Positions 1-20,725 are shown, numbered from the stretch's first letter. The stretch: 32,000 nt of DNA from Suttonella indologenes (GCF_900460215.1 NZ_UHIA01000003.1:494760-526759), one strand, 5' to 3'. Numbers and translations: made by a program. The notes: a model not told the origin generated them from the letters alone.

Positions 1-1
1 C

Positions 2-3000
2 AGCACACAAGGCAGCCTGAAAAATTTACACACCTTACAAGCTGGCAAACGCATTCAGATTCAAGCAAATAACCTTGATAATACAGCGCAAAGCAGCATC
101 CAATCAGGCGGTACAACAGACATCGCCGCGCAGCACAATTTAACCAACCGCGGCTTGATTGACGGACAACAAACCAAAATCCAAACTGGACAAGTACATA
201 ATCTCGGCACAGGTCGGATTTATGGCGACAATATTGCCATTACTGCCACGCGTTTAGACAATCAAGATGAAAACGGCACAGGTGCCACCATTGCTGCACG
301 AGAAAACCTGAATTTAGGCATCCGTCAATTAAATAACCGTGAAAACAGCCTGATTTACAGCGGTAATGACATGGCAATTGGCGGTGCATTGGATGCTCAA
401 GGTCAAGCCACAGGGAAAGCCCAAAGCATACACAATGCCAGCGCAACCATTGAATCAGCAGGCAAAATGCGATTAGGCGTAGCAACACTGCGCAATACCA
501 ATGAACACTTGCAAACGCAATTGGTAGAAACAGGGCGTGAGCATATTGTGGATTACGAAGCATTTGGACGACACGAATTATTGCGCGAAGGCACGCAACA
601 TGAATTAGGCTGGTTTGTTTATAACGATGAATCAGACCACTTGCGCACCCCCGATGGGGCAACACATGAAAATTGGCACAAATACGATTATGAAAAAGTA
701 ACCCAAGAAACCCAAGTTACCCAAACTGCACCTGCCAAAATCATTTCAGGCAGCGACTTAACCATTGACAGTAAAGAAGTCTTCAATACCGACAGCCAAA
801 TCATTTCAGGCGGCAATCTGCTGGTACAAACAGATAAAGACGGTTTGCACAATGAGCAAACTTTTGGCGAAAAGAAAGTCTTCAGTGAAAACGGCAAATT
901 GCACAACTACTGGCGTGCGCGTCGTAAAGGACGGGATAGAACAGGCCATAGCGTACAAAATTACACTTTACCAGAAGAAATCACCCGCAACATTTCACTG
1001 GGTTCGTTTGCCTATGAATCGCACAGCAAAGCATTAAGCCATCATGCGCCCAGCCAAGGTACAGCTCTGCCGAAAAGCAACTGGAATAATATCCGTACCG
1101 CACAAAACAACGGTATTTCGCTACCTCATTCGCCCAATCCTTTTACCCAATTGCCCAGCAGCAGTCTGTACATCATTAACCCAGCCAATAAAGGTTACCT
1201 TGTTGAAACCGACCCACGCTTTGCCAACTACCGTCAATGGTTAGGGAGCGACTACATGTTGGGTAGTCTTAAACTGGACCCCAACAACCTGCATAAACGT
1301 TTGGGTGATGGTTATTACGAGCAACGCTTAATCAATGAACAAATCACAGAGCTAACAGGACATCGTCGTTTAGATGGTTATCAAAACGACGAAGAACAAT
1401 TCAAAGCCTTAATGGATAAGGGCTTAAGCGCTGCACGTTCCATGAATCTCACGGTTGGCATTGCACTAAGTGCCGAGCAAGTCGCACAGCTAACCAGCGA
1501 CATCGTTTGGTTGGTACACAAAGAAGTTAAGCTCCCTGATGGCAGTACGCAAACCGTATTGGTGCCACAGGTTTATGTGCGTGTGAAAAATGGCGACATA
1601 GACGGTAAAGGTGCATTGCTCTCGGGCAACAATGCACAAATAGACGTTGCAGGCAACCTGAAAAACTCAGGCACGATTGCAGGGCGCAATGCGCTTATCA
1701 TCAACACCGATACACTGGACAATATCGCTGGGCATGTTCATGCACAAAAAGCAGCCATTTCTGCCACACAAGACATCAACAATATTGGCGGTAACCTTTC
1801 TGCTGAACAGGCATTATGGTTAAAAGCAGGCAACAACATCAACAGCCAAAGCACCACCGCCGGCAGTCAAAATACACAAGGCAGCAGCACCCACCTAGAC
1901 CGAATAGCAGGTATTTACATCACAGGCACAGAAAAAGGTGTTTTAGCAGCACAAGCTGGTAAGGACATCAACATCATTGCCAGTCAAATCAGCAATCAAT
2001 CAGAGCAAGGACAAACCCAGCTGCAAGCAGGGCGCAACATCAATCTGGATACCGTACAAACCGGCAAACATCAAGAAACCCATTTTGATGCTGATAACCA
2101 TGTTATTCGCGGTTCAACTAACGAAATTGGTAGCAATATTCAAACGCAAGGTGATGTTACCCTGTTAGCAGGCAACAACCTCAATGCCAAAGCTGCCCAA
2201 GTCAGCAGCGCAAACGGTACACTCGCTGTGTCTGCCAAAAATGACATCAACATCAGCGCAGGCATCAATACGACCCATGTTGATGATGCGTCCAAACACA
2301 AAGGCAGAAGTGGCGGTGGCAATAAATTGGTTATTACCGACAAAGCCCAGAGCCACAACGAAACCGCTCAAAGCAGCACTTTTGACGGCAAACAAGTTGT
2401 ATTGCAGGCAGGAAACGACGCCAACATAAAGGGCAGCAATGTCATTTCTGACAGTGGCACCCATATCCAAGCAGGCAATCATGTTCACATTGGCACAACC
2501 CTAACCCATAATCAAAGCGAAACCTATCATCAAACCAAAAAATCAGGATTGATGAGTGCAGGTATCGGCTTCACGATTGGCAGCAAGACAAACACACAAG
2601 AAAACCAATCCCAAAGCACCGAACATACAGGTAGTACCGTAGGCAGCATCAAAGGCGATACCGCCATTGTTGCAGGCAAACAATTCACCCAAATCGGCAG
2701 TACCGTTTCCAGCCCGGAAGGCAACAACACCATCCATGCCCAAAGCATAGACATTCAAGCAGCACACAACCAATTAAACAGCAATACCACCCAGACCTAT
2801 GAACAAAAAGGCTTAACGGTGGCATTCAGTTCGCCCGTTACCGATTTGGCACAACAAGCTATTGCCGTCGCACAAAGCAGCAAACAAGTCGGACAAAGCA
2901 AAAATGGTCGTGTCAATGCCATGGCAGCTGCCAATGCAGGTTGGCAAGCCTATCAAACAGGTAAGAGTGCACAAAACTTAGCCAACGAGACAACCAATGC

Positions 3001-5875
3001 CAACCAAGTCAGCATCTCCATTACCTATGGCGAGCAAAAAAACCAACAAACCACCCAAATTCAAGCAAGCCAAGCCCAAGCAAGTCAAATTCAAGCAGGC
3101 GGTAAAACCACACTCATCGCCGCAGGTGCAGCAGAACAATCCAACATCAACATAACAGGTTCAGATGTAGCGGGTAAAGCAGGTACCACCCTGATTGCCG
3201 ATAACAACATCACACTCCAATCCGCCGAACAAAGCAGCAGAGAACGCAGCAACAACAAAAGCAGCGGCTGGAATGCAGGTGTCGCCGTATCATTCGGACA
3301 AGACGGTTGGTCATTAGGCATTACCGCAGGTGGCAATGTCGGCAAAGGCTACGGCAATGGCGACAGCATCACCCACCACCATAGCCATATTGGCGACAAA
3401 GGCAGCCAAACCGTTCTCCAAAGCGGCGGCGATACCGCACTCAAAGGCGCGCAAGTCATCGGCAAAGGCGTACAAGTTCATGCCCAAAACCTAAGCATTC
3501 AAAGCGTACAAGATAGCGAAACCTATCAAAGCAAACAACAAAACGCCAGCGCACAAGTGACCGTAGGTTATGGATTCAGTGCCGGCGGCAATTACAGCCA
3601 AAGCAAAATCAACGCAAGCCACCAAAGCGTAAGCGAACAAAGCGGTATTTATGCAGGAGAAGACGGTTATCAAATCAATGTGCAGAACCACACCGATTTG
3701 AAAGGCGGTTTGATTACTTCCACCCAAAAATCGGAAGACGATGGCAAAAACCGTTTTACAACGGGTACGCTCACCTTTGAAGACTTGGCGAATAAGTCGG
3801 AATATAGCGGCAGTGGCTTTGGTATTGGCGTTTCAGGCAGCGTTAAAGGCAATGCACCTGATAATAGCCATATTATGCAAGTGTCGAATAAAACAGGCGT
3901 ATCGCACAACGGTATTGGCTATGCAAGCGATTCTGATAGCCAATCTTCCGTAACCAAATCAGGGATTAACACCGCTAATATTGTGATTACCGATACAGCC
4001 AAACAACAACAAATCACAGGCAAAACAGCGGAAGAAACGCTTAAAGCGGTTAAAACCGACATTACAACCGACAACTACGCCGAACATTCAGGCAGCCTGA
4101 AAAACAATTTCGATAAAGACAAAGTGCAATCAGAGATTGATTTGCAGGTTGAAGTAACCAAACAAGCCGCACCGATGATTGCACAAGGTGTTGCTTTTGC
4201 GTCTGATTATTTGGGTAAAGTTAAACAGTATGAAAACAAATTACTGCAAAAGGATTTGTTAGAACAAGCAATTAACCAAAGCAATGACCCAGAAGAAATT
4301 CTTCGCTTAAATCAAGCCTTAAACGAAGTGGATAGTTATTTAACGGAAAACAAAGCCCGTTATGATTTATTCAAAGAAGGCGGTTTAGACAGAGCGGGCT
4401 TACACGCTGTGGGCGGTGGTGTTTTAACGGGCGATATAAGCGGAGCGGTGGGTGCTGGGGTAACTTCGCTATCTGCTCCGATTATTGCCCAAGTTGCCGA
4501 TAATTCAGGCAGCCTGAAACCTGTTGTGGATACCGTTAGCGGTTTAGCGATTGGCTACACCACAGGCGGCACTGCTGGTGCTTTTACTGGGGCTAATGCG
4601 GATTGGAATAATCGGCAGTTGCACCCTGATGAACGGCGTTGGATTAAACAAAATGCAGAAAAATTTGCCGAACAACAAGGTATTAGCACCGAAGAAGCAA
4701 CGGAATGCTTGGCACAACAAGCGGCACGGCAAACGGACGCTTTATGGTTCTTGGCTTTATCAGGTGGTGAAGACCAAGTTGCAAGGGATTTTTTAGCAAC
4801 AGCCAATCAAACATTCAGCAACGAGAGCGGTAAGCAACAACAATTCTTTACCACGCAAGGCAAAGATTTCACAATGCCACAACGCTATGCACCTGACGCA
4901 AGAATGGACTTGGATTATTACGATAAGTATTTAATCAAAGGCGACAACAACAAAATCAACGACAGAGCCAAACAAATTGTTGCGGACAAAGCGAAATCGG
5001 CGGCGGATACGCTGATAAATGACCCGAAACAAGCGGCGAAAAACACAGGGAAATTTGCGTATAACACTGGTAAAGCGGTTGTTACTGGCACAGTGGATTG
5101 TGTTTTACACCCAATAAATTGTGCTGTTGGCGTGAAAGACGGTTTTGTAGAGAATGCAACGGCAATCGGCACAGGTGCGGCTTCGATGAAAGAAAACGAC
5201 TTGCAACGCTTGTATGGTCAAGATACTCGAACCGCACAAGGATTTATTCTTGCTGGCAATTTAACCGAAGCAGGTTTAACCGCCACAGGTGCAGGTAAAT
5301 TAGGCGGTGCGACGGTTAAAACTGCCAAGAAAGCCGTTGTTGAACAAGCCGAGAAAAAAGCCGCACAAGAAGCCGCTGAAAATGCAAGAAAAGCCAAACA
5401 GGCGGAAATCAATTTTGGCAAAGATGCTGAAATGGTAGGGCAACCTGAAATTACAACTGGTAGTAATTCGGCAGGAAAAGCGAACAATCCGCAAAGTGCG
5501 GCAACTACGCAGCCTGTGATTGGTCAGGGGGCTGTTGCTACTCGTATCAATGTTAGAAATGGGGACGGTTCAAATAGTAGTGGATTGAATTATGCTTGGA
5601 AAAATCATGGTAATGATTCGACAAGAAATAAATCAAAATTTACCATTTCAAAAGATGAAGTTATCGGTATATTAAGTGATAAAAATACCGTTAGAACTCC
5701 TGCTTATTTTGAACCAAGTTCTGGTAACTATATTCGGAATGTTGATACAGGCAGAACTATTGGTATAGATAGATACGCACAAGGTGGTCCTGCTCTGACA
5801 ACTACCTTAACTGTTATTACTGATAGTAAAGGTAATTTGGTAAATACCTATCCAGGTCGCACAAAAGTTAGATAG
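2..5875 (+). CDS. cdiA: CdiA/TpsA-family CDI exoprotein (filamentous-haemagglutinin-like), 5'-partial because the gene enters from upstream of the window; polymorphic C-terminal toxin, tentatively EndoU/BECR-like RNase
   Basis: The frame is open from base 2, with no stop before the TTG at 155 used by the ORF track. The translation has long G/N/S/T/Q-rich FHA beta-helix repeats. It has the conserved ETDPRFANYRQWLGSDYM...TSDIVWLV...LVPQVYV block typical of FhaB/CdiA/TpsA proteins. A pretoxin junction SGSLKNNFDKDKVQSEIDLQ lies at about 4087-4150, followed by a unique tail. The tail motifs NHG...NKSKF...(I/V)xTYP recall bacterial EndoU-type toxins (memory only). A tpsB/cdiB gene and immunity-like genes lie in the same island. 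Confidence 0.92.
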   Translation, partial: STQGSLKNLHTLQAGKRIQIQANNLDNTAQSSIQSGGTTDIAAQHNLTNRGLIDGQQTKIQTGQVHNLGTGRIYGDNIAITATRLDNQDENGTGATIAARENLNLGIRQLNNRENSLIYSGNDMAIGGALDAQGQATGKAQSIHNASATIESAGKMRLGVATLRNTNEHLQTQLVETGREHIVDYEAFGRHELLREGTQHELGWFVYNDESDHLRTPDGATHENWHKYDYEKVTQETQVTQTAPAKIISGSDLTIDSKEVFNTDSQIISGGNLLVQTDKDGLHNEQTFGEKKVFSENGKLHNYWRARRKGRDRTGHSVQNYTLPEEITRNISLGSFAYESHSKALSHHAPSQGTALPKSNWNNIRTAQNNGISLPHSPNPFTQLPSSSLYIINPANKGYLVETDPRFANYRQWLGSDYMLGSLKLDPNNLHKRLGDGYYEQRLINEQITELTGHRRLDGYQNDEEQFKALMDKGLSAARSMNLTVGIALSAEQVAQLTSDIVWLVHKEVKLPDGSTQTVLVPQVYVRVKNGDIDGKGALLSGNNAQIDVAGNLKNSGTIAGRNALIINTDTLDNIAGHVHAQKAAISATQDINNIGGNLSAEQALWLKAGNNINSQSTTAGSQNTQGSSTHLDRIAGIYITGTEKGVLAAQAGKDINIIASQISNQSEQGQTQLQAGRNINLDTVQTGKHQETHFDADNHVIRGSTNEIGSNIQTQGDVTLLAGNNLNAKAAQVSSANGTLAVSAKNDINISAGINTTHVDDASKHKGRSGGGNKLVITDKAQSHNETAQSSTFDGKQVVLQAGNDANIKGSNVISDSGTHIQAGNHVHIGTTLTHNQSETYHQTKKSGLMSAGIGFTIGSKTNTQENQSQSTEHTGSTVGSIKGDTAIVAGKQFTQIGSTVSSPEGNNTIHAQSIDIQAAHNQLNSNTTQTYEQKGLTVAFSSPVTDLAQQAIAVAQSSKQVGQSKNGRVNAMAAANAGWQAYQTGKSAQNLANETTNANQVSISITYGEQKNQQTTQIQASQAQASQIQAGGKTTLIAAGAAEQSNINITGSDVAGKAGTTLIADNNITLQSAEQSSRERSNNKSSGWNAGVAVSFGQDGWSLGITAGGNVGKGYGNGDSITHHHSHIGDKGSQTVLQSGGDTALKGAQVIGKGVQVHAQNLSIQSVQDSETYQSKQQNASAQVTVGYGFSAGGNYSQSKINASHQSVSEQSGIYAGEDGYQINVQNHTDLKGGLITSTQKSEDDGKNRFTTGTLTFEDLANKSEYSGSGFGIGVSGSVKGNAPDNSHIMQVSNKTGVSHNGIGYASDSDSQSSVTKSGINTANIVITDTAKQQQITGKTAEETLKAVKTDITTDNYAEHSGSLKNNFDKDKVQSEIDLQVEVTKQAAPMIAQGVAFASDYLGKVKQYENKLLQKDLLEQAINQSNDPEEILRLNQALNEVDSYLTENKARYDLFKEGGLDRAGLHAVGGGVLTGDISGAVGAGVTSLSAPIIAQVADNSGSLKPVVDTVSGLAIGYTTGGTAGAFTGANADWNNRQLHPDERRWIKQNAEKFAEQQGISTEEATECLAQQAARQTDALWFLALSGGEDQVARDFLATANQTFSNESGKQQQFFTTQGKDFTMPQRYAPDARMDLDYYDKYLIKGDNNKINDRAKQIVADKAKSAADTLINDPKQAAKNTGKFAYNTGKAVVTGTVDCVLHPINCAVGVKDGFVENATAIGTGAASMKENDLQRLYGQDTRTAQGFILAGNLTEAGLTATGAGKLGGATVKTAKKAVVEQAEKKAAQEAAENARKAKQAEINFGKDAEMVGQPEITTGSNSAGKANNPQSAATTQPVIGQGAVATRINVRNGDGSNSSGLNYAWKNHGNDSTRNKSKFTISKDEVIGILSDKNTVRTPAYFEPSSGNYIRNVDTGRTIGIDRYAQGGPALTTTLTVITDSKGNLVNTYPGRTKVR
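10..21 (+). repeat. DNA uptake sequence AGGCAGCCTGAA
   Basis: Exact 12-mer, in frame as G-S-L-K in cdiA. Confidence 0.8.
4090..4101 (+). repeat. DNA uptake sequence at the cdiA constant/variable junction
   Basis: Exact 12-mer encoding GSLK of SGSLKNNFDKDKVQSE. Confidence 0.85.
4507..4518 (+). repeat. DNA uptake sequence
   Basis: Exact 12-mer, GSLK of NSGSLKPVVD, inside the block repeated at 7361-7701. Confidence 0.8.
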
Positions 5876-5885
5876 GAGAATAACG

Positions 5886-6233
5886 GTGTCTTCGTATTCA
5901 ATAATCGTTTCTAATCCATACGGAATTTTTAATTCTGATAATGGTTCTATGCGTATAGATATTCCTTTGGATGTTTTTAAAAGGATTATGTATGATGACG
6001 AAATAGATGATGTATTACTATCTCAATTAAGTCTTGTTGATCAAGATGAATATTCAAATGACGAGTTATCAAAGATTCAAAAGGAAATTAATGAACTAAT
6101 TGAAAAACAATTAGTTACTCAAAAAGATATGCAAGAACTTTTGAATTTATTGCAATTTGCTATTGATAACAATCGTTCAGTGTTATTTACTCCTTTTAAT
6201 TGGGATCATATACCATTAGGAAAATTCAATTAA
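5886..6233 (+). CDS. cdiI: putative cognate immunity protein (CdiI) for the cdiA toxin; small acidic cytosolic protein
   Basis: GTG start lies 7 nt after a perfect AGGAG (5874-5878) that overlaps the cdiA stop. The product is 115 aa, D/E-rich, with no signal peptide. The gene is AT-rich and sits immediately 3' of the toxin, followed by a terminator. Confidence 0.65.
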   Translation: MSSYSIIVSNPYGIFNSDNGSMRIDIPLDVFKRIMYDDEIDDVLLSQLSLVDQDEYSNDELSKIQKEINELIEKQLVTQKDMQELLNLLQFAIDNNRSVLFTPFNWDHIPLGKFN

Positions 6234-6311: not shown

Positions 6312-7040
6312 AGACACGACTTGCAACGCTTGTATGGTCAAGATACTCGAACTGCACAAGGATTTATTCTTGCTGGCAATTTAACCGAAGGTGCTTTAAC
6401 TGCAACAGGTGCAGGTAAATTAGGCGGTGCGACGGTTAAAACTGCCAAGAAAGCCGTTGTTGAACAAGCCGAGAAAAAAGCCGCACAAGAAGCCGCTGAA
6501 AATGCAAGAAAAGCCAAACAGGCGGAAATCAATGCAGGGCTTGACGGGGAAATGGTAGGGCAACCTGAAATTACAACTGGTAGTCATTCGGCAGGAAAAG
6601 CGAACAATTCGCAAAGTGTGGCAACTACGCCGCCTGTAACTTCAAACGGTGCGGCGAATATTGCTACTGGGGCAAAATTGAACCTTGACCTGAAAACTAC
6701 ACAAGCGGCAAATGAAGTGGTGGAAAGTTTGCGAACAACTGGACAGTTGCCGAATTATTATATTACGAAACAACAAGCAATCACGAATGGTTGGTCTGGT
6801 GGCAAAGCATTAAATAACACGAACCCAGGCAAAGCAATCGGCGGTGATCTTTTTCATAATAACGAAAATATTTTACCAAATGCGGCAGGACGAGTTTGGT
6901 ATGAAGCTGATATTGGTGTTGATTATAGTCGTTCTCGTAAAAATCAATCTTCAAGAATCTTGTATTCCAATGATGGATTGTTGTATGTTACTTCTGACCA
7001 TTATCAATCCGCTCCACTTTTTATTGGTAAATGGAAATAA
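6312..7040 (+). CDS. orphan cdiA-CT cassette encoding a barnase-family (microbial guanyl-specific) ribonuclease toxin; no TPS domain or signal peptide
   Basis: Bases 6316-6638 repeat cdiA 5196-5518 (DLQRLYGQDTRTAQGFILAGNL...KAKQAEIN). The C-terminus then aligns by eye to Bacillus barnase: LPNYYITKQQA..GW, GKAIGGDLF, VWYEADI, SRILYS and TSDHYQS match barnase DNYITKSEA, GKSIGGDIF, TWREADI, DRILYS and TTDHYQT. The catalytic Glu, Arg and His positions are conserved. Confidence 0.88.
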   Translation, partial: RHDLQRLYGQDTRTAQGFILAGNLTEGALTATGAGKLGGATVKTAKKAVVEQAEKKAAQEAAENARKAKQAEINAGLDGEMVGQPEITTGSHSAGKANNSQSVATTPPVTSNGAANIATGAKLNLDLKTTQAANEVVESLRTTGQLPNYYITKQQAITNGWSGGKALNNTNPGKAIGGDLFHNNENILPNAAGRVWYEADIGVDYSRSRKNQSSRILYSNDGLLYVTSDHYQSAPLFIGKWK

Positions 7041-7345
7041 TGATGAAAATAGAAATTTTTGGTAAAGAAATTAAAGATGAAATGGATTTTCATCGTCAAT
7101 TTAATAAATATGCAGATTGTTCATTTTATGGACATAATTTAGATGCTCTGTGGGATGTTTTAACTGGTATGTTGGATATGCCAGTACATTTGATTTGGTA
7201 TGATTCTGATATATCTGCAAAAATATTAGAAAGATATAAAATGATTATTGAAATTTTTGAAAGAACACGAATTTTCTTTGAAGAAATTTGCAAAAATAAT
7301 CCACAATATCCTTCTGACAAAAAATTCACTTATGAATTGAGATGA
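7040..7345 (+). CDS. barstar-family ribonuclease inhibitor (immunity for the barnase cassette)
   Basis: YGHNLDALWDVLTGMLDMPVHLIW matches the barstar core [24 protein letters not shown]. The ATG at 7040 overlaps the toxin stop (TAATG), implying translational coupling. The ORF track start at 7031 is in the same frame. Confidence 0.88.
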   Translation: MMKIEIFGKEIKDEMDFHRQFNKYADCSFYGHNLDALWDVLTGMLDMPVHLIWYDSDISAKILERYKMIIEIFERTRIFFEEICKNNPQYPSDKKFTYELR

Positions 7346-7360: not shown

Positions 7361-7701
7361 TTTAACGGGCGATATAAGCGGAGCAGTGGGTGCTGGGGTA
7401 ACTTCGCTATCTGCTCCGATTATTGCCCAAGTTGCCGATAATTCAGGCAGCCTGAAACCTGTTGTGGATACCGTTAGCGGTTTAGCGATTGGCTACACCA
7501 CAGGCGGCACTGCTGGTGCTTTTACTGGGGCTAATGCGGATTGGAATAATCGGCAGTTGCACCCTGATGAACGGCGTTGGATTAAACAAAATGCAGAAAA
7601 ATTTGCCGAACAACAAGGTATTAGCACCGAAGAAGCAACGGAACGCTTGGCACAACAAGCGGCACGGCAAACGGACGCTTTATGGTTCTTGGCTTTATCA
7701 G
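7361..7701 (+). pseudogene. orphan cdiA fragment (pretoxin segment only), cut off by a REP element
   Basis: Nearly identical to cdiA 4424-4763 (LTGDISGAVGAGVTSLSAP...ANADWNNRQLHPDERRW...ALWFLALS). Homology stops exactly at the REP copy starting at 7701. No toxin or immunity gene follows. Confidence 0.85.
7445..7456 (+). repeat. DNA uptake sequence
   Basis: Exact 12-mer in the orphan fragment; a copy of 4507-4518. Confidence 0.8.
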
Positions 7702-7890
7702 CAAGGTAGGGTGGGCAACTTGTTGCCCACGCGTTTAATCAATTTCAGGCAGCCTGAAATCAGTTTATTGGGTTTGTCAATAAACTATTTTATGTGGCGA
7801 AAATTTATCCAAGTTGGTTAAGGAAAACAACAATGCACTTAAAACCCAAATTAAAACGCGTGGGCAACAAGTTGCCCACCCTACGCTTGC
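7701..7890. repeat. NIME/MITE-like unit: two inverted 33-34-bp REP copies (7701-7733 and 7857-7890) flanking a DUS and a small hairpin
   Basis: Left end is gcaaggtagggtgggcaacttgttgcccacgcg. Right end is cgcgtgggcaacaagttgcccaccctacgcttgc, its reverse complement apart from one extra base. Each copy contains the 9-bp stem GTGGGCAAC/GTTGCCCAC. An internal DUS lies at 7747-7758 and the hairpin agtttattg/caataaact at about 7762-7786. Confidence 0.8.
7747..7758 (+). repeat. DNA uptake sequence inside the REP-flanked unit
   Basis: Exact 12-mer within tttcaggcagcctgaaa (7-bp self-complementary stem). Confidence 0.8.
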
Positions 7891-7926: not shown

Positions 7927-10900
7927 ATGTTGGGTAGTCTTAAACTGGACCCCAACAACCTACATAAACGTTTGGGTGATGGTTATTACGAGCAACGCTT
8001 AATCAATGAACAAATCACAGAGCTAACAGGACATCGTCGTTTAGACGGTTATCAAAACGACGAAGAACAATTCAAATCCCTGATGGATAACAGTGTCACT
8101 GCTGCTCAAACAATGAACCTCACGGTTGGCATTGCATTAAGTGCCGAGCAAGTTGCACAGCTGACCAGCGACATCGTTTGGTTGGTACACAAAGAAGTTA
8201 AGCTCCCTGATGGCAGTACGCAAACCGTATTGGTGCCACAGGTTTATGTGCGTGTGAAAAATGGCGACATAGACGGTAAAGGTGCATTGCTCTCGGGCAA
8301 CAATGCACAAATAGACGTTGCAGGCAACCTGAAAAACTCAGGCACGATTGCAGGGCGCAATGCGCTTATCATCAACACCGATACACTGGACAATATCGCT
8401 GGGCATGTTCATGCACAAAAAGCAGCCATTTCTGCCACACAAGACATCAACAATATTGGCGGTAACCTTTCTGCTGAACAGGCATTATGGTTAAAAGCAG
8501 GCAACAACATCAACAGCCAAAGCACCACCGCCGGCAGTCAAAATACACAAGGCAGCAGCACCCACCTAGACCGAATAGCAGGTATTTACATCACAGGCAC
8601 AGAAAAAGGTGTTTTAGCAGCACAAGCTGGTAAGGACATCAACATCATTGCCAGTCAAATCAGCAATCAATCAGAGCAAGGACAAACCCAGCTGCAAGCA
8701 GGGCGCAACATCAATCTGGATACCGTACAAACCGGCAAACATCAAGAAACCCATTTTGATGCTGATAACCATGTTATTCGCGGTTCAACTAACGAAATTG
8801 GTAGCAATATTCAAACGCAAGGTGATGTTACCCTGTTAGCAGGCAACAACCTCAATGCCAAAGCTGCCCAAGTCAGCAGCGCAAACGGTACACTCGCTGT
8901 GTCTGCCAAAAATGACATCAACATCAGCGCAGGCATCAATACGACCCATGTTGATGATGCGTCCAAACACAAAGGCAGAAGTGGCGGTGGCAATAAATTG
9001 GTTATTACCGACAAAGCCCAGAGCCACAACGAAACCGCTCAAAGCAGCACTTTTGACGGCAAACAAGTTGTATTGCAGGCAGGAAACGACGCCAACATAA
9101 AGGGCAGCAATGTCATTTCTGACAGTGGCACCCATATCCAAGCAGGCAATCATGTTCACATTGGCACAACCCTAACCCATAATCAAAGCGAAACCTATCA
9201 TCAAACCAAAAAATCAGGATTGATGAGTGCAGGTATCGGCTTCACGATTGGCAGCAAGACAAACACACAAGAAAACCAATCCCAAAGCACCGAACATACA
9301 GGTAGTACCGTAGGCAGCATCAAAGGCGATACCGCCATTATGGCAGGTAAACACTATCAACAAATCGGCAGTACCGTTTCCAGCCCGGAAGGCAACAACA
9401 CCATCCATGCCCAAAGCATAGACATTCAAGCAGCACACAACCAATTAAACAGCAATACCACCCAAACCTATGAACAAAAAGGCTTAACGGTGGCATTCAG
9501 TTCGCCCGTTACCGATTTGGCACAACAAGCTATTGCCGTCGCACAAAGCAGCAAACAAGTCGGACAAAGCAAAAATGGTCGTGTCAATGCCATGGCAGCT
9601 GCCAATGCAGGCTGGCAAGCCTATCAAACAGGTAAGAGTGCACAAAACTTAGCCAACGGGACAACCAATGCCAACCAAGTCAGCATCTCCATTACCTATG
9701 GCGAGCAAAAAAACCAACAAACCACCCAAATTCAAGCAAGCCAAGCCCAAGCAAGTCAAATTCAAGCAGGCGGTAAAACCACATTAATCGCCGCAGGTGC
9801 AGCAGAACAATCCAACATCAACATAACAGGTTCAGATGTAGCGGGTAAAGCAGGTACCACCCTGATTGCCGATAACAACATCACACTCCAATCCGCCGAA
9901 CAAAGCAGCAGAGAACGCAGCAACAACAAAAGCAGCGGCTGGAATGCAGGTGTCGCCGTATCATTCGGACAAGGAGGCTGGTCATTAGGCATTACCGCAG
10001 GTGGCAATGTCGGCAAAGGCTACGGCAATGGCGACAGCGTAACACACCACCATAGCCATATTGGCGACAAAGGCAGCCAAACCATTATCCAAAGCGGTGG
10101 CGATACCACACTAAAAGGCGCGCAAGTCATCGGCAAAGGCGTACAAGTTCATGCCAAAAACCTAAGTATTCAAAGCGTACAAGATAGCGAAACCTATCAA
10201 AGCAAACAACAAAACGCCAGTGCCCAAGTGACCGTAGGCTACGGCGCCAGTGCTGGCGGCAGTTATGGCAAAAGCAAAATCCGAGCCGATCATGCTTCGG
10301 TAACCGAGCAAAGCGGTATTTATGCAGGAGAAGACGGCTATCAAATCAACATCGCCCAACACACCGACCTCAAAGGCGGCATTGTTACCAGTACCCAAAG
10401 CGCAGAAAACAAAGGCAAAAATCGATTCAGCACCGGCACACTCGCCCACAGCGACATCAAAAACCACAGCCAATACCAAGGCAAAAGTTTCGGATTGGGT
10501 GCCAGCGTTGCCGTAAGCGGCAAAACATTGGGGCAAGGAGAACAAAACACCCAAAGCAGCCTGAAAACCGTAGCCGATAAAAACGGCACCGGTTCGTCTG
10601 TCGGTTACGGCAAAGACAGCGACAACCAAAGCAGTGTTACCCGCAGCGGCATCAACACCCGAAACATTCACATTACCGATGAAGCCGAACAAATCCGGCT
10701 GACGGGCAAAACGGCAGAGCAAAGCAAAGTCGATATTTATACCGACACCAATACAGACACCGCCGAACAACTTTCAGGCAGCCTGAAAAACGTCTTTGAT
10801 AAAGACAAAGTGCAAAGCGAGCTGGATTTACAAAGAACAGTCAGCCAAGACTTCAACCGCAATGTTCAGGCAGCCAATACCGCAATCAACCGCCACCTTG

Positions 10901-12063
10901 ACCAACTCAAAACACAACTGGAAAAAGGCGAAATCAGCCAAACGGAATACGACAGCAAAGTAGCCAACTGGCAACGAGGGCAAGTGTTGCTCAACAGCAT
11001 TGCCTCAGGCTTAACTGCGCCGACCCAAAGTGCAACAGGTATTGTGGCAGCGACCGCATCGCCAGCGTTGTCGTATGAAATTGGGCAACACTTTAAAGGA
11101 AAAAACGCAGAAGGAACGAGCGCACATATTCTTGCCCATGCGGTATTGGGAGCGGCGGTTGCAGCAGCAGGAGACAATAACGCCCTAGCAGGAGCGATTA
11201 GCGCAGGTGGGGCAGAAGTGGCTGCACCGAGAATAAGTCAATTTTTATATGGAACAGGCAAAGCCAATGAATTGACAGCCGAGCAGAAAGAGACTGTTTC
11301 AGCGATTACAAATTTGCTGGGGGCGGCAACAGGGGCAGTTGTTGGCAACTCAACAGTCAATGCGGTGCAAGGTGGACTGAATGCGGAAAATGCGGTGGAG
11401 AATAATGCAGTCAATCAAAAACAAACAGGTACAATTAATACATTCATCAATGTATTCAACAATACCCCTTCAAAAATGGGACAGACCAAAGGAGAAGCTG
11501 CTCATAATGCTATGTTACGATTAAGTAATACTGATTGGGACTATACTCCCAATGTTACTCCTTATTTTAACTTATTAGAAGGCAGATATATATATACAAG
11601 TGAAGGTGGGTGGATTGATATGGTACATTTCCTATTTTATGCATCTGTGGCATATAAAGAAAAAATCAACTTACAAAGAAAGAATGACATAGATTGGACA
11701 TTACCATCTAATTATGGACAAGTAAGACGCATATCATCAGAAGAAATCCAAAATAAAGCCATTAACGAGGCAATCCAATATGGATATATTCAGGAAAAAA
11801 TGGATTCTTTTAAATCACAACACTCTGCTTATTCATATGAAGATTTACCATCAGATAAGTATGGTGCAATTTTTGGAGCAAAATATTTTAATCCTAAAAC
11901 ACAACAAACTTTTGGAGAACAAATAAATCATTACTTCACCCATATACTAAAAGCACAAGACCCTAAAACAGCACCTAATTATTCATCATTACCAACAGAA
12001 GATTTAGGTGTACATTCAGGCATAGTCAATAAAACAACTAAACCTCTATTCATTGGGAAATGA
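7927..12063 (+). CDS. cdiA: 5'-truncated cdiA copy (silent cassette) with PT-VENN pretoxin domain and an unclassified C-terminal toxin
   Basis: Homology to cdiA starts at 7889, immediately after REP 7857-7890, and corresponds to cdiA 1218 onward (offset 6671). It is near-identical to about 10230 and then diverges. It contains SGSLKNVFDKDKVQSE, a PT-VENN-like stretch (AHAVLGAAVAAAGDNNALAGAISAGGAEVAAP...LNAENAVENN) and an AT-rich toxin of about 218 aa. There is no TPS domain or signal peptide; the first ATG is at 7927. Confidence 0.88.
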   Translation: MLGSLKLDPNNLHKRLGDGYYEQRLINEQITELTGHRRLDGYQNDEEQFKSLMDNSVTAAQTMNLTVGIALSAEQVAQLTSDIVWLVHKEVKLPDGSTQTVLVPQVYVRVKNGDIDGKGALLSGNNAQIDVAGNLKNSGTIAGRNALIINTDTLDNIAGHVHAQKAAISATQDINNIGGNLSAEQALWLKAGNNINSQSTTAGSQNTQGSSTHLDRIAGIYITGTEKGVLAAQAGKDINIIASQISNQSEQGQTQLQAGRNINLDTVQTGKHQETHFDADNHVIRGSTNEIGSNIQTQGDVTLLAGNNLNAKAAQVSSANGTLAVSAKNDINISAGINTTHVDDASKHKGRSGGGNKLVITDKAQSHNETAQSSTFDGKQVVLQAGNDANIKGSNVISDSGTHIQAGNHVHIGTTLTHNQSETYHQTKKSGLMSAGIGFTIGSKTNTQENQSQSTEHTGSTVGSIKGDTAIMAGKHYQQIGSTVSSPEGNNTIHAQSIDIQAAHNQLNSNTTQTYEQKGLTVAFSSPVTDLAQQAIAVAQSSKQVGQSKNGRVNAMAAANAGWQAYQTGKSAQNLANGTTNANQVSISITYGEQKNQQTTQIQASQAQASQIQAGGKTTLIAAGAAEQSNINITGSDVAGKAGTTLIADNNITLQSAEQSSRERSNNKSSGWNAGVAVSFGQGGWSLGITAGGNVGKGYGNGDSVTHHHSHIGDKGSQTIIQSGGDTTLKGAQVIGKGVQVHAKNLSIQSVQDSETYQSKQQNASAQVTVGYGASAGGSYGKSKIRADHASVTEQSGIYAGEDGYQINIAQHTDLKGGIVTSTQSAENKGKNRFSTGTLAHSDIKNHSQYQGKSFGLGASVAVSGKTLGQGEQNTQSSLKTVADKNGTGSSVGYGKDSDNQSSVTRSGINTRNIHITDEAEQIRLTGKTAEQSKVDIYTDTNTDTAEQLSGSLKNVFDKDKVQSELDLQRTVSQDFNRNVQAANTAINRHLDQLKTQLEKGEISQTEYDSKVANWQRGQVLLNSIASGLTAPTQSATGIVAATASPALSYEIGQHFKGKNAEGTSAHILAHAVLGAAVAAAGDNNALAGAISAGGAEVAAPRISQFLYGTGKANELTAEQKETVSAITNLLGAATGAVVGNSTVNAVQGGLNAENAVENNAVNQKQTGTINTFINVFNNTPSKMGQTKGEAAHNAMLRLSNTDWDYTPNVTPYFNLLEGRYIYTSEGGWIDMVHFLFYASVAYKEKINLQRKNDIDWTLPSNYGQVRRISSEEIQNKAINEAIQYGYIQEKMDSFKSQHSAYSYEDLPSDKYGAIFGAKYFNPKTQQTFGEQINHYFTHILKAQDPKTAPNYSSLPTEDLGVHSGIVNKTTKPLFIGK
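10776..10787 (+). repeat. DNA uptake sequence at the constant/variable junction of the second cdiA copy
   Basis: Exact 12-mer encoding GSLK of SGSLKNVFDKDKVQSE. Confidence 0.85.
11395..11406 (+). other. VENN pretoxin/toxin boundary motif
   Basis: gtg gag aat aat is in frame (AENAVENNAV). Composition becomes visibly AT-richer downstream. Confidence 0.85.
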
Positions 12064-12741: not shown

Positions 12742-13026
12742 ATGAGCCAACTCCAAACCTATCCGAAACAACCCACTTCCATGCAAAGCAGTTATGCATT
12801 GGCAAGACGAGCCGAGCAAAATTACCGCGATATGATTAACCAACAATTAATCCACTCGCTAGAACGCATGGCAAACCCAAACTACCAAGCCCAAGATATG
12901 CCCCATGACTTCCATGCTTCGGTTTTGAACAGAATTGCCCAACAAATGGAACAAGCTGATGTACAAGCAAGCGTAGGGTGGGCAACTTGTTGCCCACGCG
13001 TTAATGATAACTTTCAGGCAGCCTGA
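12742..13026 (+). CDS. hypothetical protein; 3' end replaced by a REP plus DUS
   Basis: ATG preceded by aggaac. I recognise no family. From 12967 the reading frame runs through a REP copy and a DUS, so the native C-terminus is probably lost. Confidence 0.3.
   Translation: MSQLQTYPKQPTSMQSSYALARRAEQNYRDMINQQLIHSLERMANPNYQAQDMPHDFHASVLNRIAQQMEQADVQASVGWATCCPRVNDNFQAA
12967..13000. repeat. REP copy (forward orientation)
   Basis: gcaagcgtagggtgggcaacttgttgcccacgcg. It starts the 133-bp block 12967-13099, which is duplicated at 17241-17373. Confidence 0.8.
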
Positions 13027-13027
13027 A
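13016..13027 (+). repeat. DNA uptake sequence
   Basis: Exact 12-mer, 15 nt after REP 12967-13000 and upstream of the cdiA 5' stub. Confidence 0.8.
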
Positions 13028-13056
13028 AGCCTAAAACCACAAGGAAAGCTCCAAAA

Positions 13057-14209: not shown

Positions 14210-14592
14210 ATGTTTGTGCGTTGTTTTAAAGTTGTCATTATTGTTTTTATAATGGTAATGACAACTTCTTGTAATCCTTGTTTATTTGCAACTTCGTCTT
14301 GTAATTATCCTTTTGATGATATGACGATAAGAGCAAACAACGATATTGAATATTTTGTTAAAAATAATACGACTACGAACAACGAATTGATGATTTCAGA
14401 AGTTGCCTTTCCGTTGCTTGTCCTGAAATATATAAATTATATCAATTACCTGATGAAAAGGGTAATTATCAATATATTATAAAAAAATATTATGATAATA
14501 AATACAATGATAATGCAGTCAAATCGACAAATTGTATTGGGGATAATGCAAGATGTATGCTTAATAATAAAGGATATTCAACAAAATGGTAA
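14210..14592 (+). pseudogene. small Cys-rich lipoprotein, family A, frameshifted
   Basis: The N-terminus MFVRCFKVVIIVFIMVMTTSCNPC is identical to 21645. The frame is lost near 14380-14386. The alternative frame restores RIDDFRSCLSVACPEIYKLYQLPDEKGNY...ARCMLNNKGYSTKW*. Confidence 0.8.
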
Positions 14593-14594
14593 TA

Positions 14595-17372: not shown

Positions 17373-17531
17373 GCAAGCGTAGGGTGGGCAACTTGTTGCC
17401 CACGCAGTTCAATCAGATACACATAAAATGATGTTTTAATGTGAAATATTTGATTTCAGGCTGCCTGAAAAATAAAATGATGTGGTGTGCATCAAACCGC
17501 GTGGGCAACAAGTTGCCCACCCTACGCTTGC
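17373..17531. repeat. NIME/MITE-like unit: inverted REP pair (17373-17405 and 17498-17531) flanking a DUS
   Basis: Same terminal repeats as 7701-7890 but a different interior. The central tttcaggctgcctgaaa lies at 17454-17470. The right REP abuts the next cdiA cassette to the base. Confidence 0.8.
17455..17466 (-). repeat. DNA uptake sequence (minus strand) inside the REP-flanked unit
   Basis: ttcaggctgcct within tttcaggctgcctgaaa. Confidence 0.8.
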
Positions 17532-20500: not shown

Positions 20501-20725
20501 GTAGAAGGTTTTGCTGGCACTCATGATTATATTGGCGGTCAAATGTGGGGCTTTTATGACAAAGACGGTAATACTACGCCAGGTCGAGATACATACAATA
20601 AAAAAGATGAATATTGGTCAAGTAAAATTACCGTTGCAGCAATTCCAGTTGCCGCTCCGTTTGCCATTAGCGATATAGTCGATAGCGACTTTATACAGGC
20701 AATTATGAAAATAAGCGGTCATTAA
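17531..20725 (+). CDS. cdiA: 5'-truncated cdiA copy (silent cassette) with unclassified C-terminal toxin ending in a hydrophobic tail
   Basis: Homology to cdiA starts at 17531 (= cdiA 1895, offset 15636) and is near-identical to about 19445. The junction is IGSLKNNFDKEKVLKELNIQVEVTKDF. The unique C-terminus includes GGIQGKKGTFFGEYNIGSMRDTVVEGFAGTHDYIGG and ITVAAIPVAAPFAISDIVDSDFIQAIMKISGH*. The ORF-track frame stays open back to GTG 17441 only because it reads through the REP. Confidence 0.85.
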   Translation, partial: LDRIAGIYITGTEKGVLAAQAGKDINIIASQISNQSEQGQTQLQAGRNINLDTVQTGKHQETHFDADNHVIRGSTNEIGSNIQTQGDVTLLAGNNLNAKAAQVSSANGTLAVSAKNDINISAGINTTHVDDASKHKGRSGGGNKLVITDKAQSHNETAQSSTFDGKQVVLQAGNDANIKGSNVISDSGTHIQAGNHVHIGTTLTHNQSETYHQTKKSGLMSAGIGFTIGSKTNTQENQSQSTEHTGSTIGSIKGDTAIMAGKHYQQIGSTVSSPEGNNTIHAQSIDIQAAHNQLNSNTTQTYEQKGLTVAFSSPVTDLAQQAIAVAQSSKQVGQSKNGRVNAMAAANAGWQAYQTGKSAQNLANGTTNANQVSISITYGEQKNQQTTQIQASQAQASQIQAGGKTTLIAAGAAEQSNINITGSDVAGKAGTTLIADNNITLQSAEQSSRERSNNKSSGWNAGVAVSFGQGGWSLGITAGGNVGKGYGNGDSVTHHHSHIGDKGSQTIIQSGGDTTLKGAQVIGKGVQVHAKNLSIQSVQDSETYQSKQQNASAQVTVGYGFSAGGNYSQSKINADHASVTEQSGIYAGEDGYQINVQNHTDLKGGLITSTQKSEDDGKNRFTTGTLTFEDLANKSEYSGSSFGVGLSGSMGGGESMPKEIGGQKLMTLGSNKTFDLTEPDGTPTGESKTVAMGSLKTQTGIGHDSESQHSVTHSGINTANIVIADENKQKELTGKTADETIGAIKTDVTVENYAEHIGSLKNNFDKEKVLKELNIQVEVTKDFSENAKATIAQVYEPKQAKLREEIKELEKKKDFSDPNSKEWEIYQAEQDKLYDKIYNLQYQKRILETVVGIVALDPDTAITQGLLQGVATKLRRETLDNSRKFPGIVDKNGKVLLSNVSYDSDYFDGVKLGGVRVDLDVICGDTRCVKNPNGTLTYVGDEKFPKFENVISPTDNPDGFKKISGATGGIQGKKGTFFGEYNIGSMRDTVVEGFAGTHDYIGGQMWGFYDKDGNTTPGRDTYNKKDEYWSSKITVAAIPVAAPFAISDIVDSDFIQAIMKISGH
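19801..19812 (+). repeat. DNA uptake sequence at the constant/variable junction of the third large cdiA copy
   Basis: Exact 12-mer encoding GSLK of IGSLKNNFDKEKV. Confidence 0.85.

What the first reader, a model, noticed from the sequence alone, without database searches (positions are those of the whole stretch)
4063..4165. A DNA uptake sequence sits exactly on the constant/variable junction of every cdiA copy, always in the same reading frame
All four cdiA bodies carry the exact 12-mer AGGCAGCCTGAA as ggc-agc-ctg-aaa (GSLK). The sites are 4090, 10776, 15113 and 19801, within the conserved junction SGSLKN(N/V)FDK(D/E)KV. The C-terminal regions become unrelated 40-70 nt downstream. About 90 bp around the DUS are identical between cdiA (4063-4150) and the hydrolase cassette (15086-15173). 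A DUS plus a homology block at the swap point would favour uptake of foreign toxin cassettes by natural transformation and their recombination into cdiA. All 8 coding DUS in the island are read in the same frame as GSLK. With 13 exact copies in 32 kb, far fewer than one is expected by chance for a 12-mer.
Basis: partly seen in the sequence, partly recalled or inferred. Interest (0 to 1): 0.78.

Follow-up and report, generated by a model that had tools for sequence, protein, structure and literature searches.

The report
DNA-uptake tag at CdiA swap junction
A Neisseria-type DNA uptake sequence is written in-frame into the last conserved block before the exchangeable toxin end of a contact-dependent-inhibition gene and all its spare cassettes, but the host here is Suttonella, whose sampled neighbouring DNA lacks such sequences, so the toxin island looks imported.

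Summary
The AG-kingDUS 12-mer sits at 4090, 10776, 15113 and 19801, read GGC-AGC-CTG-AAA (GSLK), inside a block conserved across CdiA proteins (G-x-L-x-N-x-FDK). The four copies become unrelated 45-60 nt downstream.

It is not a protein or codon artefact. In 135 unique homologous junctions, all 12 GRL(K/N/Q) sites use the Neisseria or N. animalis DUS codons, and 13 of 16 GSLK sites use the kingDUS codons. Haemophilus and Acinetobacter use many synonymous codings and never a DUS.

The block is a real swap point. A same-species metagenome contig is a chimera whose crossover lies inside the 87-bp block holding the DUS.

- Exact protein matches name the host as Suttonella indologenes (Cardiobacteriaceae).
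- About 13.6 kb of its adjacent core DNA has no DUS, but carries its own over-represented palindrome, AAGCGCTT.
- DUS density (0.41/kb) and the GSLK frame are ordinary for kingDUS genomes.

DUS at the 5' ends of tpsC cassettes, and cassette capture by transformation, were reported for N. meningitidis in 2013.

Verdict: this is a DUS-tagged recombination block, probably inherited from Neisseriaceae donors. An uptake role in this host is unsupported.

The parts
1..5875 (+). cdiA/tpsA, 3' two-thirds (copy A). The gene runs off the left edge of the window.
   Evidence: Open frame from base 2. Pfam Fil_haemagg_2 and Fil_haemagg.
10..21 (+). kingDUS inside the cdiA repeat region, read GSLK
3670..3790 (+). 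Upstream identity block. A, C and D are 98-100% identical here. It is the left border of the semi-variable linker and is homologous to the place where Neisseria loci carry a reverse DUS read FQTA.
3791..4063 (+). Semi-variable linker (44-74% DNA identity between copies, with indels). It is itself exchanged between strains.
4064..4150 (+). Conserved junction block of copy A, exactly identical to 15087-15173 in cassette C. It contains the crossover interval of chimera L085.
4087..4101 (+). king/sim DUS dyad TTCAGGCAGCCTGAA (kingDUS 4090-4101 on +, simDUS 4087-4098 on -), codons S-G-S-L-K
4507..4518 (+). Second in-frame DUS dyad of copy A (GSLK), 83 nt 5' of the DWNNRQLHPDE motif (motif starts 94 nt after the DUS start)
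4601..4633 (+). DWNNRQLHPDE motif, the inner toxin junction of the A-type module. A and L085 diverge immediately after it.
5886..6233 (+). Putative immunity gene of copy A (no family match)
   Evidence: Position
6321..7345 (+). Orphan barnase-like toxin fragment (6321-7040) plus barstar immunity gene (7031-7345)
   Evidence: Pfam Ribonuclease and Barstar
7386..7709 (+). Orphan fragment duplicating A 4448-4706, including its DUS (7445)
7927..12063 (+). Orphan cassette B. Junction DUS dyad at 10773-10787, PT-VENN domain with VENN at 11395-11406.
13016..13027 (+). Intergenic DUS dyad 29 nt 5' of an ATG that opens an ESPR signal-peptide fragment (13057-13311). The same unit recurs at 17290.
14586..16508 (+). 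Orphan cassette C. Junction DUS dyad at 15110-15124. Followed by a putative immunity gene at 16508-16939.
17441..20725 (+). Orphan cassette D. Homology to A starts at 17531. Junction kingDUS at 19801-19812, with no sim partner. Followed by a putative immunity gene at 20736-21173.
7860..7879 (.). REP-like palindrome GTGGGCAAC(AA/TT)GTTGCCCAC. Seven copies: 7711, 7860, 12978, 17252, 17384, 17501, 22207. The 5' truncation points of B and D abut the same half-palindrome.
22862..23860 (-). IS110-family transposase
24183..26483 (+). HlyC-like acyltransferase (24183-24641) and ShlB/TpsB transporter (24696-26483). The transporter holds the last DUS dyad (25598, GSLK).
26621..27577 (+). Mutator-family transposase, at the right edge of the DUS-bearing region
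27788..32000 (.). Host core genes (ogt, BCCT transporter, glycosyltransferase). No DUS. The host palindrome AAGCGCTT occurs at 30012, 31776 and 31796.

Best explanation
What the site is. It is an in-frame Neisseriaceae DNA uptake sequence, an AG-kingDUS/AG-simDUS dyad. It lies in the conserved block (S)G-x-L-x-N-x-FDK-x-x-V-x-x-E-(I/L)-(D/N)-(L/I)-Q. That block ends the FHA-2/linker part of CdiA and precedes the exchangeable pretoxin + toxin (+ immunity) module.

Shown:
- The block is the 3'-most homology shared by cdiA and its orphan cassettes.
- Recombination inside it reassorts C-terminal modules.
- In the Neisseria, Kingella-type, Simonsiella-like and Uruburuella loci examined, the four codons are held in the DUS spelling of one of three dialects. 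The free residues follow the dialect: S with AGC, R with CGT, and K or Q after the leucine. Non-DUS relatives vary both the residues and the codons.

Inferred:
- The DUS is kept there by uptake bias, whether selection or molecular drive. G-x-L-x tolerates it, and every cassette that keeps any homology arm then carries an uptake tag.
- The invariant 12-19 bp also gives diverged cassettes a guaranteed microhomology patch. Many minimal cassettes begin exactly at it.
- In this window the host is Suttonella indologenes. Its flanking core DNA lacks DUS and has a different over-represented palindrome. The whole CDI island, with its DUS copies, was therefore probably imported from, or is shared with, a king/sim-dialect Neisseriaceae.
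- In this host the DUS most likely acts only as conserved recombination homology, not as an uptake signal.
For: Site and frame.

Mosaic map and last homology patch.

Chimera L085: the crossover lies between -28 and +60 relative to the GSLK glycine codon.

Cross-taxon junction survey, 135 unique segments:
- GRLK/N/Q: 12 of 12 are coded GGC CGT CTG (A/C)A.
- GSLK: 13 of 16 are coded GGC AGC CTG AAA.
- GKLE in Pasteurellaceae: 71 segments use 11 codings.
- GALK in Acinetobacter: 5 segments use 5 codings.

DNA checks: N. meningitidis, N. animalis aniDUS, a Simonsiella-like cassette.

In-window controls: GSLK at 1262/7933 and at 19607 is not DUS-coded, and codon usage predicts P of about 0.016 for the DUS spelling.

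Cassettes whose homology starts at the DUS.

Longest shared exact run: it includes the DUS in 81 of 154 diverged pairs.

Host identity.

Core flank: 0 DUS in about 13.6 kb, against 13 in the island. The host palindrome AAGCGCTT occurs 11 times in the core flank and 0 times in window 1-26 kb.

Literature:
- Capture of tpsC by transformation, and DUS at the 5' ends of tpsC (PMC3848433).
- king/sim dyads used as markers of imported islands (PMC7371117).
Against: - Only about 13.6-20 kb of host core DNA was sampled.
- No comP search was possible.
- The 13 exact DUS copies against about 6 one-mismatch variants show little decay. That could mean recent import, or ongoing maintenance in this host.
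- No donor was identified. The closest non-Suttonella junctions are 70-72% identical at the protein level.
- Several Neisseria hosts carry the kingDUS form at the junction, so dialect tracking is incomplete.
- Recombination breakpoints also occur 300-540 nt upstream and, in N. meningitidis experiments, anywhere in the homology region.
- Selection and drive cannot be told apart by sequence.
- Host taxa of the metagenome loci are inferred only from the DUS types in their flanks.
Confidence: 0.6

Rival explanations
1. The DUS plus homology block is an adaptation that lets this bacterium take up foreign toxin cassettes by DUS-dependent natural transformation and recombine them into cdiA.
For: - All cassettes keep an intact DUS, with little decay.
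- The block is a proven crossover site.
- N. meningitidis acquires tpsC cassettes from added DNA.
Against: - The host is Suttonella indologenes, in the Cardiobacteriaceae.
- There are 0 DUS in about 13.6 kb of adjacent core DNA, where 12-35 would be expected in a DUS-using genome.
- The core carries a different over-represented motif.
- L085 can be explained by intragenomic conversion between copies that are 100% identical to A and C.
Confidence: 0.15
2. Pure protein or codon constraint. GSLK is required by CdiA, and the 12-mer is simply how it is encoded.
For: G and L of the motif are invariant or nearly so across families. Stenoxybacter keeps GSLK with TCC.
Against: - The residues between and after G and L vary freely in outgroups: K, A, T, V, Y, H and E, K, A, T, N.
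- Synonymous codons vary freely there, but are frozen in the DUS spelling in DUS-using taxa.
- S, R and K/Q switch with the dialect.
- Other GSLK peptides in this window are not DUS-coded, and the codon-usage probability is about 0.016.
Confidence: 0.03
3. The DUS copies act mainly as dispersed repeats for illegitimate, microhomology-mediated rearrangement. DUS-DUS recombination between an intergenic copy and the junction copy creates, truncates and shuffles cassettes, and uptake is irrelevant.
For: - Homology of many minimal cassettes begins exactly at the 12-mer: L176, L173/L175, and protein clusters starting MNLK/MNSK/MIK/MTK-GRLKN.
- Between diverged window copies, the DUS plus 3-7 nt is the whole exact match at the site, 15-19 bp.
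- N. meningitidis crossovers use 5-23 bp identities.
Against: - It does not explain why the site follows the uptake dialect across lineages.
- In this window the 5' truncations of B and D abut a REP-like palindrome, not a DUS.
- The DUS run is the longest shared run in only 53% of diverged pairs, and those pairs were chosen for sharing the DUS.
Confidence: 0.2

Closest known systems
Neisseria meningitidis tpsA/tpsC (CdiA) islands, Arenas et al. 2013, PMC3848433
   Same: - A full-length tpsA is followed by 5'-truncated cassettes, each with an immunity ORF.
- Cassettes share a 5' homology arm with tpsA.
- DUS copies lie mostly at the 5' ends of tpsC cassettes.
- Cassettes were experimentally captured from added DNA.
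- The homologous codons in N. meningitidis are GRLK = aGGCCGTCTGAAa.
   Different: - That paper did not tie the DUS to a specific conserved motif, frame or dialect.
- In the meningococcus, homology extends to VENN, about 0.7 kb past the DUS. Here the pretoxin types differ, so the DUS block is the last shared patch.
- The host here is a Cardiobacteriaceae whose sampled core DNA has no DUS.
cdiA-CT/cdiI orphan modules recombining at VENN (Poole et al. 2011, as cited in PMC3848433)
   Same: Modular toxin/immunity replacement by homologous recombination upstream of a conserved pretoxin motif. Cassette B has PT-VENN.
   Different: The main swap block here lies about 0.6 kb upstream of VENN, at the FHA-2/pretoxin boundary. 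A-type modules use DWNNRQLHPDE instead of VENN. No uptake sequence is involved in the enterobacterial systems.
AG-kingDUS/AG-simDUS dyad islands used to detect imported elements in Neisseria (PMC7371117)
   Same: A cluster of king/sim overlapping dyads is confined to an island whose host background lacks them, marking horizontal origin.
   Different: That element is an ICE in gonococci and meningococci. Here it is a CDI toxin-cassette array in a different bacterial class (Gammaproteobacteria).
DUS dialects and coding-frame bias (Frye et al. 2013, PMC3630211; bioRxiv 10.1101/2025.10.24.684340)
   Same: The same 12-mer, the same preferred SLx coding frame, the TGA-blocked frame, and dyad pairing.
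   Different: Neither paper, in the passages read, describes one orthologous coding site carrying three dialects with matching amino-acid changes (GSLK, GRLK, GRLQ). That pattern is what the survey here shows.

Membership tests
CdiA/TpsA contact-dependent inhibition locus with orphan cdiA-CT/cdiI cassettes | Large exoprotein with haemagglutinin (FHA) repeats | tested here: met
   Pfam Fil_haemagg_2 at E 3e-46 to 2e-44 in copies A, B and D, and Fil_haemagg in A
CdiA/TpsA contact-dependent inhibition locus with orphan cdiA-CT/cdiI cassettes | Pretoxin motif followed by a polymorphic C-terminal toxin and a small immunity gene | tested here: met
   PT-VENN in B. DWNNRQLHPDE junction in A. Barnase/barstar orphan pair. 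A small ORF follows each cassette. The toxin domains of A, C and D have no Pfam match.
CdiA/TpsA contact-dependent inhibition locus with orphan cdiA-CT/cdiI cassettes | 5'-truncated cassettes sharing homology with the 3' part of cdiA | tested here: met
CdiA/TpsA contact-dependent inhibition locus with orphan cdiA-CT/cdiI cassettes | Cognate TpsB/CdiB transporter upstream of cdiA | not testable with these tools
   cdiA runs off the left edge of the window. A ShlB-family gene lies downstream at 24696-26483, behind an IS, and may belong to another TPS unit.
Neisseriaceae DNA uptake sequence (AG-kingDUS / AG-simDUS dyad) | Exact match to the 12-mer dialect, including the CTG core | tested here: met
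   13 kingDUS and 11 simDUS, 10 of them overlapping dyads. Dialect sequences as given in PMC7371117 and PMC3630211.
Neisseriaceae DNA uptake sequence (AG-kingDUS / AG-simDUS dyad) | Genome-wide over-representation in the host (about 1-2.5 per kb) | tested here: not met
   0 king/sim 10-mers in about 13.6 kb of adjacent core DNA in several strains. Only this stretch could be sampled.
Neisseriaceae DNA uptake sequence (AG-kingDUS / AG-simDUS dyad) | Host belongs to the Neisseriaceae and encodes the ComP receptor | tested here: inconclusive
   Host named Suttonella indologenes, Cardiobacteriaceae, through exact protein matches, so the family criterion is not met. comP could not be searched.
Neisseriaceae DNA uptake sequence (AG-kingDUS / AG-simDUS dyad) | Enhances DNA uptake or transformation | not testable with these tools
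   Needs transformation assays. According to PMC3630211, kingDUS and simDUS themselves had not been functionally verified.
DUS-tagged tps cassette exchange as in N. meningitidis | A DUS at the homologous position of the cassette homology arm in related taxa | tested here: met
   N. meningitidis, N. elongata, N. flavescens, N. weixii, N. animalis, U. suis, Simonsiella-like and Kingella-labelled loci
DUS-tagged tps cassette exchange as in N. meningitidis | Recombination between cassette and cdiA within the homology arm | tested here: met
   Chimera L085. Mosaic blocks among copies A-D.

The most novel reading that the evidence does not exclude
The uptake sequence is an adaptive, co-evolving address label built into the CdiA pretoxin boundary.

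- Across Neisseriaceae the same four codons are rewritten whenever the uptake dialect changes (GSLK, GRLK, GRLQ).
- Every toxin/immunity cassette is therefore a self-tagged transformable module. The invariant tag also serves as the crossover and truncation point.
- Such a tagged island has crossed into Suttonella, a Gammaproteobacterium.
- Suttonella appears to have its own, undescribed uptake-signal-like palindrome, AAAGCGCTTT, at about 0.8/kb in core DNA.
Probability: 0.3. Interest if true: 0.8.

Novelty: new variant of a known kind. Interest (0 to 1): 0.55.

Why it matters
This is a natural experiment on a long-running question: are uptake sequences selected, or do they only accumulate by drive?

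- One orthologous coding site carries three DUS dialects, with matching amino-acid changes, in DUS-using lineages.
- The same site has free codons in lineages without DUS.
- It sits at a place where recombination has a clear fitness consequence, because it exchanges toxin and immunity modules.

It also shows that DUS dialects can trace the movement of toxin cassettes between genera, and here apparently between bacterial classes. The four codons are a precise target for recoding experiments.

Tried and rejected
- Uptake signal at the homologous place in Pasteurellaceae: none found. The only recurrent USS lies at +174 in a single module class, in 32 of 35 sites.
- Predicted forms for other dialects (eikDUS GYLK, simDUS GCLK, king3DUS SSLQ/H, wadDUS ACLK): I probed with synthetic variants in a profile search. 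No Eikenella, K. kingae or N. wadsworthii homologue was returned, so these predictions remain untested.
- The protein database searches returned only short fragments.
- Sampling more of the host genome through IS copies failed. The IS110 transposase is on record on one 2.3-kb contig only, and the Mutator transposase is not on record.
- The source genome was not among the GTDB representative hits. The best junction match was 70%.
- GC content does not separate island from flank.
- A pairwise up/down identity screen with free end gaps gave mostly noise. Only the L051a-L070 pair was informative.


Full report
1. THE OBSERVATION

The 12-mer AGGCAGCCTGAA occurs 13 times in the window, against 0.01 expected from shuffles. 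Four copies, at 4090, 10776, 15113 and 19801, lie at homologous positions of four cdiA-like reading frames:
- A: 1-5875. It runs off the left edge of the window; bases 2-157 are open in the same frame.
- B: 7927-12063.
- C: 14586-16508.
- D: 17441-20725.

At each of the four sites the 12-mer is read a-GGC-AGC-CTG-AAa = GSLK, within GSLKN(N/V)FDK(D/E)KV(Q/L)(S/K)E(I/L)(D/N)(L/I)Q.

Four more coding copies, at 10, 4507, 7445 and 25598, are also read GSLK. By descent the eight copies represent only four origins. One frame of the DUS contains TGA. The SLx frame is reported as the commonest coding frame of kingDUS genome-wide (bioRxiv 10.1101/2025.10.24.684340).

At A, B and C the site is the overlapping king/sim dyad TTCAGGCAGCCTGAA. 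This arrangement is known from Simonsiella, Alysiella and Kingella negevensis (PMC7371117; PMC3630211).

The density of 13 in 32 kb (0.41/kb) is far above random. It is below the 0.9-2.5/kb of kingDUS genomes.

2. ANATOMY OF THE JUNCTION

A DNA alignment of the four copies gives this map, in copy A coordinates:
- A, B and D are 95-100% identical up to about 3550.
- B departs at about 3550-3600.
- C joins A and D at 98-100% identity over 3670-3790.
- All copies then diverge to 44-74% identity, with indels, over about 3790-4060. I call this the semi-variable linker.
- Identity rises again over 4075-4134. A and C are 100% identical there; the other pairs are 66-78%.
- Identity falls to background after about 4135-4150.

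The exact A=C match is 87 bp, 4064-4150 = 15087-15173. In every other pair, the exact match around the site is only the DUS plus 3-7 nt, 15-19 bp in total.

The DUS therefore sits in the last conserved patch, 45-60 nt before unrelated sequence. The constant/variable transition is stepwise, not a single point.

Pfam places FHA-2-type repeats (Fil_haemagg_2) upstream of the block. It places a PT-VENN domain about 0.6 kb downstream in cassette B, with VENN at 11395-11406. The block therefore marks the boundary between the FHA-2/linker region and the pretoxin, not the classical VENN junction.

3. IS IT PROTEIN CONSTRAINT?

I built a profile of the 86 residues around the site. I used it to fetch 79 loci from species-representative genomes and 80 metagenome loci. 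I then extracted every junction with an HMM.

The motif G-x-L-x-N-x-F-D-K is conserved in Neisseriaceae, Pasteurellaceae, Acinetobacter and others. G, F, D and K are invariant and L is nearly so. The residues encoded by the variable part of the DUS are free in those groups.

Among 135 unique 120-nt junction segments:
- GRLK, GRLN and GRLQ: 12 of 12 are coded GGC CGT CTG (A/C)A, which is the Neisseria or N. animalis DUS.
- GSLK: 13 of 16 are coded GGC AGC CTG AAA, which is the kingDUS.
- GSLK exceptions: two are Stenoxybacter GGC TCC CTG AAA, one mismatch from the simDUS that dominates the Stenoxybacter loci. One is a decayed TTG form.
- GKLE in Pasteurellaceae: 71 segments use 11 different codings.
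- GALK in Acinetobacter: 5 segments use 5 codings.
- Snodgrassella, a Neisseriaceae with no DUS in 68 kb of loci, has GYLA or GYLS.

DNA checks on named genomes:
- N. meningitidis: cacACAGGCCGTCTGAAAAAC.
- N. elongata, N. flavescens and Uruburuella suis: AGGCCGTCTGAA.
- N. animalis: TCAGGCCGTCTGCAAAAT, read GRLQ. This matches the aniDUS GCCGTCTGCA described in the 2025 preprint.

The same block class also exists in both spellings: HSGRLKNVFDKDRVQSEL in L109 and L137, and HSGSLKNVFDKDRVQSEL in L101 and L104.

Inside the window, other GSLK peptides are not DUS-coded. Those at 1262 and 7933 read GGT AGT CTT AAA. The one at 19607 reads GGT TCG CTG AAA. Local codon usage predicts the DUS spelling with P of about 0.016.

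Pure protein or codon constraint is therefore rejected.

The tracking is incomplete, however. N. elongata, N. flavescens, N. weixii and many metagenome contigs with Neisseria-type DUS flanks also carry the kingDUS form at the junction. In N. meningitidis the kingDUS transforms at 0.0002 of the AT-DUS. This points either to cassette flow between dialect groups or to retention of an older spelling.

4. IS THE BLOCK A SWAP POINT?

Contig L085 comes from sample ERZ1023499, which also holds this window's exact BCCT protein. Relative to the GSLK glycine codon:
- L085 is 92-98% like copy A up to about -400.
- It is 100% identical to cassette C from -340 to -28.
- It is 100% identical to copy A from +60 to about +540.
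- It then diverges immediately after DWNNRQLHPDE (A 4601-4633).

The C-to-A crossover therefore lies inside the 87-bp block that contains the DUS. Three modules are exchangeable: the linker, the pretoxin part and the toxin proper.

N. flavescens L051 and a Kingella-labelled MAG, L070, show the same modularity. Their identity is 97% upstream, 69% in the linker, 84% in the block and 96-97% downstream.

Many minimal cassettes begin their homology exactly at the DUS:
- L176...ATGAATTTAAAAGGCCGTCTGAAAAACAGCTTCGAC.
- The Simonsiella-like L173 and L175.
- Protein clusters starting MNSK-, MNLK-, MIK- or MTK-GRLKNSFDKD.

Among diverged pairs that share the DUS, the longest exact run in -300..+75 includes the DUS in 81 of 154 pairs. 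This figure is biased by the way the pairs were chosen.

This fits Arenas et al. 2013. [quoted passage not shown]

Other DUS copies sit just 5' of other module borders:
- A reverse Neisseria DUS read FQTA lies at -357 in most Neisseria loci. The window has FTTG at that place and no DUS.
- A kingDUS read QGSLNA lies five codons before VENN in Neisseria PT-VENN cassettes.
- In the window, the DUS at 4507 lies 83 nt before DWNNRQLHPDE.

No USS occupies the homologous place in Pasteurellaceae.

5. THE HOST

The window's TpsB and glycosyltransferase proteins are exact matches to NCBI proteins of Suttonella indologenes, WP_115217849.1 and WP_115217852.1. This species belongs to the Cardiobacteriaceae, in the Gammaproteobacteria.

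Same-species contigs extend 10 kb beyond the window's right end. The core stretch from ogt onward is about 13.6 kb. It holds no king or sim DUS, not even the 10-mers, in any strain. A DUS-using genome would be expected to have 12-35 there.

That core stretch instead carries a palindrome, AAGCGCTT, with consensus about AAAGCGCTTT:
- It occurs 11 times in L165 between 9621 and 20535, against about 0.2 expected.
- Half the copies are intergenic, in pairs about 20 nt apart. Half are coding.
- In the window it occurs only at 30012, 31776 and 31796, and never in 1-26 kb.

The DUS copies and the host motif are thus mutually exclusive. The DUS-bearing region contains or is bordered by IS110-family and Mutator-family transposase genes.

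The closest non-Suttonella junctions are from Neisseriaceae: 70-72% for two Neisseriaceae MAGs, then Stenoxybacter and Uruburuella.

I infer that the CDI island was imported from, or is shared with, a king/sim-dialect Neisseriaceae. I also infer that in this host the DUS is unlikely to act in uptake.

Caveats:
- Only one core stretch was sampled.
- comP could not be searched.
- The DUS copies are little decayed: 13 exact copies against about 6 one-mismatch variants.

6. COMPARISON WITH WHAT IS KNOWN, AND VERDICT

The locus meets the tests for a CdiA/orphan-cassette array. The motif meets the sequence definition of AG-kingDUS/simDUS. It fails the genome-wide test in this host.

Already published:
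- The idea that DUS in tps islands supply donor DNA by transformation, and the experimental capture of cassettes (PMC3848433).
- Dialect islands as markers of import (PMC7371117).
- Coding-frame bias of DUS (the 2025 preprint).

Full-text searches found no paper that links DUS to tpsC or cdiA beyond these. They found nothing on uptake sequences in Suttonella or the Cardiobacteriaceae.

What appears to be new:
- The exact placement of the DUS on a family-wide motif at the FHA-2/pretoxin boundary.
- Its rewriting in three dialects, with matching residue changes.
- Its use as a cassette end and as a crossover patch.
- Its presence in a non-Neisseriaceae host.

I rate it a new variant of a known kind, with interest 0.55.

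Noticed in passing
window 30012, 31776, 31796; L165 9621-20535; L166, L168, L169: The host core DNA carries a strongly over-represented palindrome, AAGCGCTT (consensus about AAAGCGCTTT). It occurs at about 0.8/kb against 0.2 copies expected in 13.6 kb. Half the copies are intergenic pairs about 20 nt apart and half are coding. It is absent from the 26-kb island and from all non-Suttonella loci except one chance hit. It behaves like an uptake-signal-type repeat of Suttonella, and no literature on it was found.
   Followed up: partly
window 7711, 7860, 12978, 17252, 17384, 17501, 22207; also L086, L107, L138: A REP-like perfect palindrome, GCAAG(C)GTAGGGTGGGCAAC(AA/TT)GTTGCCCACCCTAC(G)CTTGC, lies next to the intergenic DUS dyads. 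The 5' truncation points of cassettes B (about 7893) and D (17531) abut the same half-palindrome. It also occurs in cassette arrays on DUS-bearing metagenome contigs, so it travels with the island. An IS110-family transposase gene lies nearby.
   Followed up: partly
window 13016-13311 and 17290-17330: A DUS dyad lies 29 nt upstream of an ATG that opens an 84-aa ORF with an ESPR type V signal peptide. This is a remnant of the 5' end of cdiA inside the cassette array. The same DUS-plus-start unit is repeated after cassette C.
   Followed up: partly
window 24183-26483: An HlyC-like acyltransferase gene and a ShlB/TpsB transporter gene lie downstream of the cassette array, between an IS110 and a Mutator-family transposase gene. 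The TpsB gene holds a king/sim dyad read GSLK (25598). This may be the start of a second TPS unit cut by an IS.
   Followed up: no
L035, L051, L104, L137, L147 and others, at -357 and +678 from the junction: Neisseria loci carry two further conserved in-frame DUS copies. A reverse Neisseria DUS is read FQTA, where other taxa have F-x-T-G. A kingDUS is read QGSLNA five codons before VENN. Both sit just 5' of module borders.
   Followed up: partly
L035 (N. elongata), L051 (N. flavescens), L071/L072 (N. weixii), many metagenome loci: cdiA islands in hosts with Neisseria-type DUS are mosaics of dialects (AG/AT, muc, king, sim within 8 kb). This suggests cassette traffic between dialect groups.
   Followed up: partly
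L002, L004, L005 (Stenoxybacter acetivorans): The junction reads GGC TCC CTG AA(A/C), giving GSLK or GSLN. This is one mismatch from the simDUS that dominates these loci. An exact simDUS would require a cysteine.
   Followed up: no
Haemophilus-type loci, for example L129 at 4169+174: A USS (ACCGCACTT) recurs 174 nt downstream of the junction in one module class only, in 32 of 35 sites. It lies inside the variable part and is homologous to the region after the junction of window cassette D.
   Followed up: partly
P0117 (metagenome protein): A cassette reads the kingDUS in the other frame (RQPE) and continues in frame with NRFDADKV. This implies a one-base loss in the A-run right after the DUS.
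   Followed up: no
L166 6557-6590, L168 2043-2076: An inverted pair of kingDUS 10-mers lies between a sulfatase gene and a THR4_C-domain gene. This strain-variable segment sits next to the IS and is absent from the window.
   Followed up: no
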